From Bacteroidales bacterium (GTDB lineage: Bacteria > Bacteroidota > Bacteroidia > Bacteroidales > UBA10428), in assembly GCA_965230395.1 (NCBI GenBank), contig CBDDKV010000002.1:1920947-1984946 (forward strand): DNA of 64,000 nucleotides, read 5' to 3'. The translations under genes were made by a program, and so were the position numbers. The notes beneath the pieces were generated by a model. The model was not told the DNA's origin and did not search any database. It saw only the letters and a list, made by a program, of their open reading frames with translations. Below are positions 42,231 to 63,714 of this stretch, one piece after another. The stretch's first letter is position 1. The number at the start of each line of letters is the position of its first letter.

Positions 42231-42295
42231 GTGTACAACAAAGAACTAAGGTAAAAACCAAGTAAATTTCCCATAATTTTTCTTTTCGAACTACC
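42231..42295 (+). repeat. left part of attC-like site of cassette 3 (interrupted by IS110-family element)
   Basis: The first box is GTGTACAAC. The left arm CTAAGGTAAAAACCAAGTAAATTTC is the imperfect complement of the right arm GAAATCACTTATGTTTTCTTATA at 43686-43708. The right edge is approximate. Confidence 0.55.
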
Positions 42296-42330
42296 TGAGT
42301 TTTTGGGGAGGCAGATTCGAAAAGGAAAAA

Positions 42331-43299
42331 TTATTTTGTTGGTACTACTGACCTGAACTCTGGACTATACAGTACACCTGATTTGGCAATTGCCAAGGAC
42401 TGAGACAAGAGTTTATTGGGCACAGCAATCAGTGCAAGCTTTTTAGGCTTACCTTTATTCACCAGCCTTTCATACAGATCTCTAAATTGTTGATTGCTAT
42501 GGCAAGCAGTAAAGCTGCACATAAATAAGTGATTTCGAATTAAAGGATTACCTCTTTTTGATATTCTGGGTTTTCCCCTTACACTTGTTCCAGATGCCGT
42601 GATGACTGGTGAAAGGCCAAAGAAGGCCGATAGCTGTCCGGAGCTTTCAAATGATTGAAAACCATTGGTACAAACAATGAGCATAATCGCTGTCTTTTTA
42701 CCAATCCCTGGGATTGGTAAAAGATTGGTCAATAGCTCTTTTTCGTGCTCTTTTATTTGCTCTTCCAGCTCCTTTTCAAGTAACTTAATCTCGGAGTTGA
42801 TTTGACGAATTTGGCGTTTTAAAGATGTTATAATCCGTCCTTTGCCCCCTTTGTCAATAAAGCTATGTAGTTTGTTTTTAAGGGCGGTGTTTTGCTTAAA
42901 AAACAAACTTATTGTCGTATGTAAGTCTTTACAGTCATTAATATATTTAGGTAATGGTTTCCATCGGCTAATACTCTGCTCTTGGGCATATTTTACTATC
43001 ATTTTGGCGTCACTTTTATCCGTTTTATTATGCTGTAATTTCATTTGGATAAAGCGTTTAATTACCAATGGATTTATAACAGGGACATTAACCTGGTTCT
43101 CATGAAGGAATACAGCAAGCCGATGATAATAACTTCCGGAGTATTCCATAACACACCAGCTATTTGAATCAATTAGCAATAAGAACTCATAAAATCCATC
43201 TGAGGTATTCTTGAACTTTCTATGTCCCAGCTTAATACTCCAAACATCAAAAACCTTTTTTGAAATGTCAATACCAATAAAATGTGTATTTTTATTCAT
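42331..43299 (-). CDS. IS110-family (DEDD) transposase
   Basis: It reads MNKNTHFIGIDISKKVFDV...MEYSGSYYHRLA (RuvC-like DEDD N-domain) and has a C-terminal Transposase_20-type domain (IPGIGKKTAIMLI...SGTSVRGKPRISKRGNPLIRNHLFMC). The start is set at the ATG at 43299. Confidence 0.9.
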   Translation of the reverse strand: MNKNTHFIGIDISKKVFDVWSIKLGHRKFKNTSDGFYEFLLLIDSNSWCVMEYSGSYYHRLAVFLHENQVNVPVINPLVIKRFIQMKLQHNKTDKSDAKMIVKYAQEQSISRWKPLPKYINDCKDLHTTISLFFKQNTALKNKLHSFIDKGGKGRIITSLKRQIRQINSEIKLLEKELEEQIKEHEKELLTNLLPIPGIGKKTAIMLIVCTNGFQSFESSGQLSAFFGLSPVITASGTSVRGKPRISKRGNPLIRNHLFMCSFTACHSNQQFRDLYERLVNKGKPKKLALIAVPNKLLSQSLAIAKSGVLYSPEFRSVVPTK

Positions 43300-43341
43300 G
43301 ATAATTAATTTGTAAAGAACGATGCTACTTTGATATAGCAA

Positions 43342-43522
43342 CCTAAAAACAGGCTCTGCCCCCCAGAGAACTAATCGTATTTAAGTAGCGAAAGAGTGGT
43401 AATTTTCATTGTTGACTAGCTTTATGCTTTATGTATAAATTAATCTTGTCCCACTCTTCCGTTCTTTTAATTTTATTATGAAAATAAGAAATTGCAAACT
43501 TAGGATGTATAAAAAACATAAG
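43342..43522 (-). ncRNA. candidate IS110 bridge (guide) RNA region in the left end of IS #1
   Basis: This is the noncoding left end upstream of the transposase. It has the stem AGAGTGG / CCACTCT around a ~50-nt loop and the hairpin CTCTG-GGGGG-CAGAG. The relic copy at 63.6 kb changes TAA to TGG on one side and gains CCA on the other, lengthening the same stem. Assignment as a bridge RNA is by analogy only. Confidence 0.35.
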
Positions 43523-43639
43523 TGGATCAGTGGTTTACGGAAAGTTGGCACATTTACTCAGCTCCGCCAACCTTTAGCTCACGACCAAAGGGAGTAAATC
43601 TGCGATTTGACGGGTTGTTTTAAAAAAGTAAATTTGTGT

Positions 43640-43714
43640 CAAAACGCAAATTTGGCTCAGTGCAAATTGACAGGTATGAGCTTCGAAATCACTTATGTTT
43701 TCTTATATTCAACA
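43640..43714 (+). repeat. right part of long-type attC-like site (S4)
   Basis: TTGACAGGTATGAGCTTCGAAATCACTTATGTTTTCTTATATTCAAC follows the family consensus TTGATAGGT..GAGCTTCGAAAT + ~24 nt. About 115 nt between the IS end and this arm are unresolved. Confidence 0.55.
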
Positions 43715-43773
43715 TTTTACGCCATATAAACGGCCATGGTGCAATAAAATAAACTGATTTAGAGGAAAAATTA

Positions 43774-44803: not shown

Positions 44804-46533
44804 CACATCCCCCACATCAGGAGCACTTCCAAAATAGATAGAAAATAAAGGTATCTATTTCTCCAGAGCTGATTAAATCCTTAAGCTAACGGGATCGTAC
44901 CTACGATTAAAAGTTCTGCTAAATTTGGGCTGACTCTATGCAAGGCCGATTCTAAAATGGTACTATGCCTTTGGTAAAGTCCGAGCGTCATTCTTGTTGA
45001 AATGTAAAAGCCCCAGAAGTAGTGATTCCGAGGCTTGTTGATAATTCCAGTGGTGGTGTCAAAATTTTGGCAACCCCGTTCATGATAATTCTCAATTCAA
45101 AGATACATTTCCTTAGGGTCATTTTGTAGAACTTTTAAAACAAAAAAATGGCAAAGAAGAAAAAGATGGAAATGGAAGTAATAAACACCAATGCAGCAGG
45201 TATTGATGTTGGAAGCCGTTCGCATTATGTAGCAGTGGGACAATCATTGGAAGATGTGAAAGAATTTGGAGTTTATGCTGAAGGTTTAGTTGAGTTATGT
45301 AAGTGGTTGCTTTCATATGGCATTACATCGGTAGCAATGGAATCTACAGGAGATTATTGGCAAAATCTATATACAGAACTTTTAAAGCATGGTTTGGAGG
45401 TGGCCTTGTGCAATGGCAAGTTCACCAAGCATGCCAAAGGGAAAAAGACAGATGTTAAGGATTGTAGGCATATTCAAAAGCTCCATGCTTTAGGCCTTTT
45501 GGATAGTAGCTTTCTGCCTGATGAGACAACAGAGAAATTGCGGACATATTGCCGTCAAAGAAGTGGCATGATAGACCGTTCAGCCACAGCTTCACGTAAA
45601 ATGCAGAAATACTTGAAATTACTGAATTTTAGATTAGATGTAGTAGTGAAAGATGTATGTGGGCTTACAGGGTTGAAAATAATTGAAGATATATGCAAAG
45701 GTAATTTAGACCCGTATTCATTGGCGGAACATAGGCATTATAATTGCCGCAAGCCTAAAGAAGAAATAGCAAAAGCATTACATGGTAATAATAGGGAAGA
45801 TTTCTTATTTGGATTAAAGCAAGAGTATGAGGCATACCAGTTTTATCAAAAGAAGATAAAATCTTGTGACAAAATGATAGAGCAATTTGTTAAATCGGAG
45901 CTAAAGAAATCGCCAGGGAAACTTAAGCTTAAAACAACAGATAAGCCATATAAAAGAATCAATAAAAATGCCCCGGAAATAAAAAACTTTAACCAGATCG
46001 CATTTCAATATTTCGGGGGTATCGATTTAATGGCAATTGAAGGGGTAAGCCATGGAACAGTTCTGGCAATAATGAGCGAGATAGGACAAAATAGTTTTGA
46101 TAAATTCCCCTCATCAAAAGAATTTGTATCGTGGTTGCGTTTAGCTCCCAACAATAAAATATCGGGTGGAAAAGTATTGAGTAATAGGATACCAAAGGGC
46201 AGTAATAGGTTGAAAATTGCATTAAGGCAAGCAGCAAATGCTATTGGTAATTTGAAAGACACACATTTATCAGATTTTTTTAAACGGGTTGCATTTCGGA
46301 AAGGAAGACAAGCAGCAGTAAGTGCAACTGCACGAAAATTAGGTGTTATAATTTGGACAATGGTAACCAAAAAAGTACCTTACAATCCACCAGCAGAATA
46401 CCTGTTCCTTGACCAAAAAAGGAAGATGGGAATGGCAAAAAGAATAAAGAAACAAATGGCTAAATTTGACATAAAACCAGAAGAAATTGGAATTGGCAAC
46501 TCACTGACACCCAACTACAATTTTTGACGTTAG
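44802..46533 (+). mobile_element. IS110-family insertion sequence #2 inserted at the G|TT core of site S1
   Basis: ACGTTAG occurs at both ends (44795-44801 and 46527-46533). About 345 nt of structured noncoding left end precede the transposase gene, whose stop codon abuts the right-hand ACGTTAG. Confidence 0.8.
45148..46527 (+). CDS. IS110-family (DEDD) transposase
   Basis: It reads AAGIDVGSRSHYVAV...MESTGDYWQNLY (DEDD N-domain) and has the C-terminal IEGVSHGTVLAIMSEIG...SGGKVLSNRIPKGSNRLKIALRQAA. It is only distantly related to the transposase of IS #1. Confidence 0.9.
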   Translation: MAKKKKMEMEVINTNAAGIDVGSRSHYVAVGQSLEDVKEFGVYAEGLVELCKWLLSYGITSVAMESTGDYWQNLYTELLKHGLEVALCNGKFTKHAKGKKTDVKDCRHIQKLHALGLLDSSFLPDETTEKLRTYCRQRSGMIDRSATASRKMQKYLKLLNFRLDVVVKDVCGLTGLKIIEDICKGNLDPYSLAEHRHYNCRKPKEEIAKALHGNNREDFLFGLKQEYEAYQFYQKKIKSCDKMIEQFVKSELKKSPGKLKLKTTDKPYKRINKNAPEIKNFNQIAFQYFGGIDLMAIEGVSHGTVLAIMSEIGQNSFDKFPSSKEFVSWLRLAPNNKISGGKVLSNRIPKGSNRLKIALRQAANAIGNLKDTHLSDFFKRVAFRKGRQAAVSATARKLGVIIWTMVTKKVPYNPPAEYLFLDQKRKMGMAKRIKKQMAKFDIKPEEIGIGNSLTPNYNF

Positions 46534-58872: not shown

Positions 58873-58991
58873 ACACCTGATTTGGCAATTGCCAAGGACT
58901 GGGACAAGAGTTTATTGGTCACAGCAATCAGTGCAAGTTTTTTGTCTGAAGCAAAGCGGGTTTAATTCTTTTAGCCAATAAGTCATAAGTG
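58873..58991 (-). mobile_element. internally deleted relic of IS110-family element #1
   Basis: 58873-58943 matches 42373-42443, the transposase 3' coding region that includes the palindrome TTGGCAATTGCCAA. The relic ends in ...CATAAG|TGG, the same terminus and junction as at 43517-43525. It abuts the nitrilase stop codon, so that cassette has no attC-like site. Confidence 0.55.
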
Positions 58992-63530: not shown

Positions 63531-63545
63531 TAAGTACTGCCTAAT

Positions 63546-63714
63546 TATTGTATGTAAGTCTTTACAGTCATCGTATTTAAGTAGCGAAAGAGTGGTGGTT
63601 TTCATTGTTGACTAGCTTTATGTATAAATTAATCTTATCCCACCACTCTTCCATTCTTTTAATTTTATTATAAAAACAAGAAATTGCAAACTTAGGAGGT
63701 ATAAAAAACATAAG
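63546..63714 (-). mobile_element. internally deleted relic of IS110-family element #1 that retains the left-end noncoding region
   Basis: 63548-63572 matches 42911-42936, which is internal transposase coding sequence. It is joined directly to a copy of 43370-43522, the whole left-end noncoding region ending ...AAAAAACATAAG. Confidence 0.75.

What the first reader, a model, noticed from the sequence alone, without database searches (positions are those of the whole stretch)
42231..43714. Second IS110-family lineage inside an attC-like site, with two deletion relics that keep only the putative guide-RNA end
IS #1 is on the minus strand and splits the recombination site of cassette 3. Two relics of the same element lie in the array in the same orientation. 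The relic at 63546-63714 joins 25 nt of internal coding sequence directly to the complete ~150-nt left-end noncoding region. The relic at 58873-58991 keeps ~70 nt of 3' coding sequence and the terminus CATAAG|TGG. Both replace the expected attC-like site of the preceding cassette.

The left end contains a long-loop stem, AGAGTGG/CCACTCT. In the 63.6-kb relic that stem is extended by coordinated changes: TAA to TGG on one arm and a CCA insertion on the other. This is consistent with selection on structure.

IS110-family elements are known to encode bridge RNAs in their noncoding ends. Retaining that end while the transposase is lost could reflect non-autonomous, trans-mobilised derivatives. It could equally be simple decay.
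Basis: partly seen in the sequence, partly recalled or inferred. Interest (0 to 1): 0.62.

Follow-up and report, generated by a model that had tools for sequence, protein, structure and literature searches.

The report
Bridge-RNA insertion sequence in attC-like site
This is an intact RNA-guided (IS110-family) insertion sequence whose left end encodes a textbook two-loop bridge RNA aimed at one end of an integron-style recombination site; the "relics" elsewhere in the array are ordinary eroded remnants, not a new kind of guide-only mobile element.

Summary
The IS occupies 42241-43504 on the minus strand (1,264 bp), not 42231-43522. "CATAAG" belongs to the target repeat, not to the IS.

The 205-nt left end encodes a canonical IS110-type bridge RNA:
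- 35 base pairs, 20 of them with compensatory changes across 24 lineages.
- The four guide segments match the left flank, the right flank, the right end and the left end, in the strand pattern described for IS621.
- The guides co-vary with flank and end sequences across about 46 insertions in other Bacteroidota genomes.

The family always inserts one base 3' of the YAAC box of attC-like hairpins.

The 63.6-kb relic keeps only left-end bases 1-131, that is the target loop without the donor loop or right end. The 58.9-kb relic holds 71 nt of coding sequence and no IS terminus.

The genome has four relics with different parts retained. Six other genomes hold no complete bridge RNA that lacks a transposase. 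The relics are therefore decay products, not trans-mobilised derivatives. I class the IS as a new member of a known kind.

The parts
42241..43504 (-). IS110-family insertion sequence, 1,264 bp. Begins CCTAAGTTTGC... and ends ...CCTTAGTTC plus the TT core.
   Evidence: Uninserted paralogous target sites. Shared extents of multi-copy homologues in five genomes.
42331..43299 (-). Transposase/recombinase gene, 322 aa, intact.
   Evidence: Pfam PF01548 and PF02371. NCBIfam NF033542, 192 bits against a cut-off of 140. Homologues 58-74% identical over the full length.
43300..43504 (-). Left-end noncoding region, 205 nt. It carries the bridge RNA gene.
43313..43467 (-). Bridge RNA core, closed by the stem AAGAACG (43460-43466) / CGTTCTT (43315-43321).
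   Evidence: Covariance model hit of 152 bits over the full length. 35 pairs, 93.7% paired, 20 pairs with compensatory change.
43390..43459 (-). Target-binding loop. Stem arms at 43451-43459 and 43390-43399. Left target guide TTTATACAT at 43431-43439. Apical hairpin at 43418-43428. Right target guide TCAACAATG at 43407-43415.
   Evidence: The left target guide is identical to the left flank. The right target guide is the reverse complement of CAT|TGTTGA.
43324..43389 (-). Donor-binding loop. Stem arms GCTACTT at 43383-43389 and AAGTAGC at 43324-43330. Left donor guide TTAGTTCT at 43367-43374. Hairpin at 43350-43366. Right donor guide TTTTTAGG at 43342-43349.
   Evidence: The left donor guide equals the right-end terminus and co-varies with it. 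The right donor guide is the reverse complement of the left-end start CCTAA.
42241..42330 (-). Right-end noncoding region, 90 nt.
43505..43719 (.). Target: an attC-like imperfect-palindrome repeat with at least 12 copies in the genome. Its terminal ~21 bp pair with each other.
42231..42240 (.). Right target flank TGTTGTACAC. On the + strand this reads GTGTACAACA, the YAAC-type box split off from the rest of the site.
63570..63696 (-). Relic of the left end, equivalent to bases 1-131. The target-binding loop is intact with the same guides. The donor guides, hairpin and closing stem are missing.
63541..63569 (-). Scrap of about 26-31 nt of internal coding sequence (matches 42908-42938), joined to the relic through an AT microhomology.
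63697..63714 (.). Remnant of the target repeat next to the relic: core CT plus CTTATGTTTTTTATAC. The body of the repeat is deleted.
58873..58943 (-). 71-nt fragment of the 3' coding region (about aa 285-308). It holds no IS end.
58944..58991 (.). Not IS-derived. It is the 5' half of a ~87-nt palindromic repeat present in at least 18 copies elsewhere in the genome.

Best explanation
The feature at 42241-43504 is an apparently intact (intact ORF, complete bridge RNA; activity not tested) IS110-group insertion sequence that works as a bridge-RNA-guided recombinase system.

Its 205-nt left end is transcribed into a ~155-nt RNA with two internal loops (transcription is inferred, not shown):
- The target-binding loop carries TTTATACAT, the same sense as the left target, so it pairs with the bottom strand. 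It also carries TCAACAATG, which is complementary to the top strand of core plus right target (CAT|TGTTGA).
- The donor-binding loop carries TTAGTTCT, which equals the right-end terminus, and TTTTTAGG, which is complementary to the left-end start CCTAA.

The recombinase, loaded with this RNA, joins the circularised IS to the 14-nt site TTTATAC-AT-TGTTG. That site is the junction between the YAAC box and the first arm of an attC-like hairpin that follows a cassette ORF. Insertion detaches the YAAC box from the rest of the site.

Shown here: the anatomy, the structural covariation, and the guide/flank and guide/end covariation. Inferred by analogy with IS621: transcription, the circular intermediate and the catalysis.

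The pieces at 63.5 kb and 58.9 kb are eroded remains of older insertions, produced by unrelated deletions. So are two further pieces elsewhere in the genome, at C2:5.36 Mb and C2:5.263 Mb. None has a donor site made of both ends, so none can be mobilised. The lengthened stem in the 63.6-kb relic was most likely inherited from a once-active sister variant of the IS.
For: - Protein family.
- Borders: taken from 12 empty paralogous sites and about 50 homologous insertions.
- Structure: 35 pairs in 6 helices, 93.7% of cells paired against at most 55% when partners are slid. 20 pairs show double changes. 0 of 500 shuffles reach the observed values.
- Left target guide versus left flank: own lineage 8.1 of 10 matches, other lineages 6.4 of 10, 0 of 5000 permutations as high.
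- Left donor guide: follows every right-end variant, including TTAG/TCAG, GTTC/GTAC and TTCTT/TTCAT.
- Strand logic: identical to the published definition of the four guides (PMC11208160).
- Empty sites: rebuilt empty sites in 12 other insertions fold as RYYYAAC-A|arm...arm-ACC-GTTRYRY hairpins, with the IS always one base 3' of YAAC.
- Own genome: the covariance model finds one full bridge RNA (152 bits) and two truncated ones (59 bits each). Four relics retain different parts.
- Other genomes: in six genomes all 51 high-scoring bridge RNAs adjoin a transposase gene. Relics there have lost the target loop, lost the donor hairpin, or keep only the C-terminus.
Against: - No expression data.
- No promoter could be assigned.
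- The IS is single-copy, although seven perfect empty targets exist, so current activity is unproven.
- One pair in the donor-loop hairpin is broken in this copy.
- Core dinucleotides differ between the target (AT) and the right-end side (TT). The core positions of the right donor guide would pair with AA, not TT. IS621 rules do not predict this.
- Both left-end relics in this genome break within 14 nt of each other, just after the target loop (bases 118 and 131). With n=2 I treat this as coincidence.
Confidence: 0.87

Rival explanations
1. The relics are non-autonomous derivatives, comparable to MITEs, that keep the guide-RNA end and are moved in trans by the recombinase of the intact copy.
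For: Two relics in this genome (63.6 kb and C2:5.36 Mb) both keep the left-end start and an intact target-binding loop with the same guides as the intact IS. A bridge RNA can act in trans in IS621 (PMC11208160).
Against: - Mobilisation needs both donor half-sites, the right-end terminus and the left-end start. Both relics lack the right end and the donor-binding loop.
- Each relic is unique, with different breakpoints, and is 86-89% identical to the IS.
- The 58.9-kb relic has no end at all. A fourth relic keeps only the right end.
- In six other genomes no complete bridge RNA lacks a neighbouring transposase gene.
Confidence: 0.03
2. The relics that keep only the target-binding loop are retained because they still produce a half bridge RNA. 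That RNA would load recombinase dimers from the intact copy, either boosting target capture or acting as a decoy on attC-like sites.
For: - Separate target-binding and donor-binding RNA molecules support IS621 recombination in vitro, and the two loops in one complex come from different RNA molecules (PMC11208158).
- Both left-end relics break just after the target loop and keep about 45 nt of upstream left-end sequence.
- The 63.6-kb relic's loop folds more stably than the parent's, -22.7 against -18.1 kcal/mol.
Against: - The guides are identical to those of the intact IS, so the relics add no new specificity.
- The sample is only two relics.
- The basal stem of the 5.36-Mb relic is cut to 6 bp.
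- Relics in other genomes show no preference for keeping the target loop; one kept only the donor loop.
- No promoter or expression evidence exists.
Confidence: 0.05
3. The structured left end is a cis-regulatory leader of the transposase gene, for example an attenuator or an antisense target, and not a guide RNA. Target choice would then be made by the protein.
For: Older literature proposed that IS110 noncoding ends have regulatory roles (cited in PMC11208160). No RNA data exist for this element.
Against: - A leader would not be expected to carry four segments that copy the flanks and both IS ends in the exact strand pattern of bridge RNAs.
- Nor would those segments change together with flank and end sequences across lineages.
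- The transposases of those lineages remain 53-74% identical while the segments change.
Confidence: 0.02

Closest known systems
IS621 and other IS110-group bridge-RNA elements (Durrant et al. 2024, PMC11208160; Hiraizumi et al. 2024, PMC11208158)
   Same: - DEDD/RuvC plus Tnp-domain recombinase.
- Long noncoding left end upstream of the gene.
- An RNA with a target-binding and a donor-binding internal loop, each with a left guide in the sense of the top strand and a right guide complementary to it, overlapping at a 2-nt core.
- No terminal inverted repeats.
- Insertion into a repeated structured sequence.
   Different: - The host is Bacteroidota.
- The target is the YAAC-box end of attC-like hairpins, not REP elements.
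- The core is AT/TT/AA rather than CT and differs between target and donor sides.
- A closing stem (AAGAACG/CGTTCTT) encloses both loops.
- No 5' stem-loop was identified.
IS1111-attC group (ISPa21, ISPst6, ISKpn4; Tetu & Holmes 2008; Post & Hall 2009; seekRNA work in PMC11187229)
   Same: These are also DEDD-transposase elements that home, in one orientation, to one end of integron cassette recombination sites using an element-encoded RNA.
   Different: - They are IS1111-type: the noncoding region and seekRNA lie downstream of the transposase gene, and they have subterminal inverted repeats.
- Here the long noncoding region (205 nt) is upstream and the downstream one is 90 nt.
- The hosts of IS1111-attC are Proteobacteria with IntI integrons. 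Here the arrays have no IntI-type integrase.
- The resemblance is therefore convergent in function, and this IS is not a member of that group.
The other IS110-family element in the same window (45148-46527)
   Different: The proteins share only 24-34% identity over short stretches. The other protein is 459 aa against 322 aa, so the lineages are clearly separate.
rAID-1 / integron-like cassette arrays of Bacteroidales (Ross et al., bioRxiv 10.1101/471110)
   Same: This is the context the IS parasitises: co-directional small cassettes, repetitive intergenic sites 'reminiscent of integrons', and a XerD-like recombinase in place of IntI.
   Different: This concerns the host array, not the IS. I did not test whether this array is an rAID-1 member.

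Membership tests
IS110-group bridge-RNA insertion sequences | Recombinase with an N-terminal DEDD (RuvC-like) domain and a C-terminal Tnp domain. | tested here: met
   PF01548 (residues 8-149) and PF02371 (192-277). NF033542 'IS110 family RNA-guided transposase' scores 192 bits against a cut-off of 140.
IS110-group bridge-RNA insertion sequences | The longer noncoding end lies upstream of the recombinase gene (left end). | tested here: met
   Left end 205 nt, right end 90 nt. The criterion is stated in PMC11187229.
IS110-group bridge-RNA insertion sequences | The noncoding RNA has two internal loops, each made of stem, guide, hairpin, guide. | tested here: met
   Six helices and 35 pairs. 20 pairs show compensatory change across 24 lineages. 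0 of 500 shuffles reach the observed values, and slid controls pair at 55% or less.
IS110-group bridge-RNA insertion sequences | The left and right target guides match the left target (bottom strand) and right target (top strand), overlapping at the core. | tested here: met
   TTTATACAT matches the left flank and TCAACAATG is the reverse complement of CAT|TGTTGA. The left target guide co-varies with the flank (0 of 5000 permutations as high).
IS110-group bridge-RNA insertion sequences | The left and right donor guides match the right-end terminus and the left-end start. | tested here: met
   The left donor guide tracks all six right-end variants. The right donor guide complements CCTAA in 22 of 22 lineages at 3-5 of 6 positions. 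Its core positions do not fit a TT core.
IS110-group bridge-RNA insertion sequences | The RNA is expressed and bound by the recombinase, and a circular intermediate has a junction promoter. | not testable with these tools
No promoter could be assigned from sequence.
IS1111-attC group | The noncoding region/seekRNA lies downstream of the transposase gene, and subterminal inverted repeats are present. | tested here: not met
   The guide RNA lies upstream. Only a 5-nt CTAAG motif is shared in inverted orientation near the two ends.
IS1111-attC group | Orientation-specific insertion at one end of cassette recombination sites. | tested here: met
   In all 13 rebuilt empty sites the IS lies one base 3' of the YAAC box, in one orientation.
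Non-autonomous (trans-mobilised) IS derivative | Both element ends (donor half-sites) are retained, and several copies sit at cognate targets. | tested here: not met
   The relics lack the right end or lack both ends. Each is unique. No transposase-less complete bridge RNA was found in six other genomes.

The most novel reading that the evidence does not exclude
The two relics that keep only the target-binding loop (63.6 kb and C2:5.36 Mb) persist because they still make a target-binding half bridge RNA. That RNA would be used in trans by the recombinase of the single intact copy, as a dose booster or as a decoy that occupies attC-like sites. This would be a natural 'split bridge RNA'.
Probability: 0.05. 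Interest if true: 0.6.

Novelty: new member of a known kind. Interest (0 to 1): 0.35.

Why it matters
This is a clean natural example of bridge-RNA programming.

- **Guide behaviour.** Across Marinilabiliales-type and Flavobacteriales genomes one IS lineage keeps its right target guide fixed on the conserved YAAC/GTT box of attC-like sites. Its left target guide drifts to match whichever site family the host carries.
- **Convergent targeting.** RNA-guided homing to cassette recombination sites, known from the proteobacterial IS1111-attC group, has arisen independently in an IS110-type lineage. That lineage parasitises integron-like arrays of Bacteroidota that lack IntI. A second, unrelated IS110 lineage does the same in this very array.
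- **Annotation.** The corrected borders and the covariance model allow such elements and their remnants to be recognised.
- **Limit.** None of this changes the current picture of how these elements work, and the more exciting idea of guide-only mobile derivatives is not borne out.

Tried and rejected
- **Rfam.** A scan of the whole window at gathering thresholds gave no hit, so no curated family covers this RNA.
- **Literature.** The Tetu & Holmes 2008 paper (PMC2447020) is not held, so the exact IS1111-attC insertion point could not be compared.
- **Order-wide scan.** A scan of 151 genomes with the RNA model found the family in only 5. That was too sparse to count solo copies, so I used six multi-copy genomes instead.
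- **Promoter.** I looked for a Bacteroidota-type promoter (TTTG / TAnnTTTG) in the left end and across the right-end/left-end junction and found no convincing arrangement.
- **Recombinase-made deletions.** I considered that the relic breakpoints reflect recombinase action at the pseudo-donor sequence that encodes the left donor guide. I rejected this because the 63.6-kb break lies 5' of that sequence and shows an AT microhomology, and the 5.36-Mb break lies elsewhere.
- **Other targets in the window.** A search for TTTATACATTGTTG with up to 3 mismatches found only chance-level matches.
- **True integron.** I considered that the array is a true integron. No integrase reaches the IntI model cut-off; the best score is 110 bits against 265, and the IntI-specific segment is skipped.
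Full report
**What is in the sequence**

The window is part of a 6.85-Mb genome with 38% G+C (window = C2:1920947-1984946). ORF 42331-43299 on the minus strand encodes a 322-aa protein. It matches both Pfam domains of IS110 transposases and scores 192 bits against the NCBIfam 'IS110 family RNA-guided transposase' model, whose cut-off is 140.

- 63570-63714 matches 43374-43522 at 88.8% over 152 nt.
- 63541-63571 matches 42908-42938 at 90%.
- 58873-58943 matches 42374-42444 at 95.8% over 71 nt.

The other IS110-family gene in the window (45148-46527) is only 24-34% identical over short stretches. 'Second lineage' is therefore correct.

**True borders**

BLAST against the whole genome shows one complete copy of the IS. 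It also shows that 43505-43719, the sequence to the left of the IS, is a 185-215-nt repeat with at least 12 copies. Aligned, the uninserted copies continue through ...CCACTTATGTTTTTTATACAT and then read TGTT.... CTTATG (CATAAG on the + strand) is therefore target sequence, not the IS terminus.

I fetched 67 homologous loci from Marinilabiliales-type genomes (Maribellus, Prolixibacteraceae, Saccharicrinis, Sunxiuqinia) and from Flavobacteriales. Multi-copy genomes give shared extents of about 1,270 bp. Every copy starts CCTAAG(T/C)TT and ends ...(T/C)(T/C)AGT(T/A)C(T/A)T, followed by TGTTR.

In the window the element is 42241-43504.

**The left end encodes a bridge RNA**

I collected thirty distinct left ends and aligned 24 of them. 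RNAalifold and my own six-helix structure give these results:
- 35 pairs, with 93.7% of cells paired. When partners are slid, 55% or fewer are paired.
- 20 pairs have changes on both sides.
- 0 of 500 shuffles reach the observed values.

The architecture has three parts:
- A closing stem, AAGAACG/CGTTCTT.
- A second internal loop on the stem GCTACTT/AAGTAGC, with a GGGC...GCCTG hairpin.

The four guide segments in this copy are:
- First loop, 5' side: TTTATACAT. This is identical to the left flank.
- First loop, 3' side: TCAACAATG. This is the reverse complement of CAT|TGTTGA, that is core plus right flank.
- Second loop, 5' side: TTAGTTCT. This is the right-end terminus.
- Second loop, 3' side: TTTTTAGG. 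This is the reverse complement of the left-end start CCTAA.

That is exactly the strand logic published for the left target, right target, left donor and right donor guides of IS621 (PMC11208160, read).

**Guides co-vary with their DNA partners**

I compared 46 insertions carrying 18 distinct left-guide sequences. The 10 nt next to the IS match the element's own guide at 8.1 of 10 positions on average. They match other lineages' guides at 6.4 of 10. None of 5000 label permutations scored as high. Examples of guide and flank pairs:
- ATTATACATAT with TTATACATAT
- TTATACAAAA with TTATACAAAA
- TTACAATT with TTTACAATT
- TATAGCC with TTATAGCC
- ATGAGC with TATGAGC

The left donor guide follows each of the six right-end variants, including TTAG/TCAG, GTTC/GTAC and TTCTT/TTCAT. 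The right target guide is nearly constant, as is the right flank TGTTR.

Read by the bridge-RNA convention, this insertion is:
left target TTTATAC + core AT + [CCTAAG...TTAGTTC + core TT] + right target TGTTG.

**What the target is**

The flanking repeat folds with its terminal ~21 bp paired. I joined the flanks of 13 insertions in a script to rebuild their empty sites. They fold as hairpins of roughly 115-215 nt with this form:
RYYYAAC-A | arm ... arm-ACC-GTTRYRY

These sites lie a few bases after an ORF stop, and the IS always sits one base 3' of YAAC in one orientation. This is attC-like architecture, so 'inside an attC-like site' is right. The IS separates the YAAC box from the rest of the site.

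The genome has no integrase that reaches the IntI model cut-off. The best score is 110 bits against 265, and the IntI-specific segment is skipped. Its XerD-like recombinases of 267-315 aa are paired with Y2 (IS91-type) transposase genes. The array context resembles the rAID-1 clusters described in Bacteroidales (bioRxiv 10.1101/471110). This agrees with earlier notes of this scan, but I did not test it further.

Seven perfect empty target sites remain in the genome. The window holds none beyond chance.

**The relics**

I built a covariance model from the alignment. In the whole genome it finds only three hits:
- the intact RNA, at 152 bits;
- a truncated hit at window 63.6 kb, at 59 bits;
- a truncated hit at C2:5361047-5361169, at 59 bits.

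The four relics in the genome are as follows.

1. **63.6 kb.**
 - It keeps left-end bases 1-131. That covers the upstream ~45 nt, an intact target-binding loop with the same two guides, and the 5' arm of the donor-loop stem.
 - It then jumps, through an AT microhomology, to 26-31 nt of internal coding sequence and stops 10 nt from the preceding ORF.
 - On its other side only 16 nt of the target repeat survive, followed by AACGT.
 - It lacks both donor guides, the closing stem, the gene and the right end, so at least three deletions have occurred.
2. **C2:5.36 Mb.** It keeps left-end bases 1-118 and breaks inside the 3' arm of the target-loop stem.
3. **58.9 kb.**
 - It consists of 71 nt of 3' coding sequence only.
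 - The adjoining 58944-58991, including 'CATAAG|TGG', is the 5' half of a ~87-nt palindromic element. That element has at least 18 nearly identical copies, inserted at CCCACTTA|CGTTGCC in another repeat family.
4. **C2:5263075-5263261.** It keeps codons 51-103 plus 69 nt of the right end and the TGTTAGC flank.

The remnants therefore keep left, right or internal pieces without preference.

**Test of the 'guide-only derivative' idea in other genomes**

I searched six genomes that hold multiple copies. All 51 high-scoring bridge RNAs (117-181 bits) lie directly upstream of a transposase gene, which is full-length or in a few cases broken or truncated. The five low-scoring hits are decayed copies of varied kinds:
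- one has lost the target loop and kept the donor loop;
- one has lost the donor hairpin;
- the others are diverged along their whole length.

C-terminal gene fragments without any left end are at least as common. Nothing resembles a multi-copy minimal element made of left end plus right end.

**The coordinated stem change**

Relative to the intact copy, the 63.6-kb relic has GTGG>GTGGTGG on the 5' arm and TTACCAC>CCACCAC on the 3' arm. The predicted basal stem is 13-14 bp against 11 bp. The predicted fold energy is -22.7 against -18.1 kcal/mol.

This is a genuine compensatory pair. The simplest reading is that it arose in an active sister variant before that copy decayed, since the relic is only 89% identical to the intact IS. 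It is not evidence that the relic itself is under selection.

**What remains open**

- The target-side core (AT here; AA or TT in sister lineages) differs from the right-end-side core (TT).
- In Marinilabiliales-type lineages the core positions of the right donor guide would pair with AA rather than TT. In Flavobacteriales lineages that guide (AU) and the right-end core (AT) agree. IS621 rules do not explain this.
- Both left-end relics of this genome break within 14 nt of each other, just after the target loop. Separate target-loop and donor-loop RNAs support IS621 recombination in vitro (PMC11208158). A trans-acting half RNA therefore cannot be excluded, but with two cases and no expression data I give it about 5%.

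**Verdict**

This is a new, well-supported member of the IS110 bridge-RNA elements. It works like the IS1111-attC group in homing to cassette recombination sites but is not a member of that group. The relics are decay products.

Noticed in passing
C2:5263075-5263261 of the genome (outside the window): A fourth relic of the same IS lineage. It holds codons 51-103 joined directly to 69 nt of the right end, followed by the TGTTAGC target flank. It is a right-end-retaining counterpart to the left-end relics.
   Followed up: partly
window 58944-58991; also C2:2000512, 2187526, 2283006-2293361, 3451588, 5980982 and others: A ~87-nt palindromic element (TGACTTATTGGCTAAAAGAAT...ATTCTTTTTACGCCAATTACATCA...GCTTA) with at least 18 near-identical copies. 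It is always inserted at CCCACTTA|CGTTGCC of a larger ~300-nt repeat. Eight copies are clustered within 10 kb at 2.283-2.293 Mb. It looks like a small non-autonomous insertion with its own site preference.
   Followed up: partly
genome-wide: C2:536-544 kb, 2.006-2.015 Mb, 2.171-2.175 Mb, 4.435-4.437 Mb, 5.324-5.327 Mb; C1:8 kb: Copies of the 43505-43719 repeat often lie within 1-3 kb of near-identical gene pairs. Each pair encodes a 267-aa XerD-like tyrosine recombinase and a Y2 (IS91-type) transposase; there are five identical pairs. The repeat may be associated with that mobile unit as well as with cassettes.
   Followed up: partly
window 43700-43719: In the window's own copy of the target repeat, the far-end box reads TTCAACATTTTAC instead of the family's GAACGTTGGC. 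The GTT is mutated to ATT, so the site occupied by the IS may already be disabled as a recombination site.
   Followed up: no
bridge RNA right donor guide, window 43340-43349, and homologues (alignment A2 columns 124-136): In Marinilabiliales-type lineages the core positions of the right donor guide are UU and would pair with AA, while the right-end-side core is TT. In Flavobacteriales lineages they are AU and fit the AT core. Target-side cores also differ between lineages (AT, TT, AA) and match both target guides.
   Followed up: partly
other genomes: G154:C3:742-775 kb (7 copies), G152:C1:538-608 kb (6 copies), G156:C1:4.103-4.113 Mb (4 copies), G151:C1:424-432 kb (3 copies): Copies of this IS lineage are tightly clustered. 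This is what an element that homes to the recombination sites of cassette arrays would be expected to show.
   Followed up: no
whole genome: No tyrosine recombinase reaches the integron-integrase model cut-off. The best score is 110 bits against 265, and model positions ~181-237 are skipped in all hits. This holds even though the sites have RYYYAAC...GTTRRRY ends.
   Followed up: partly
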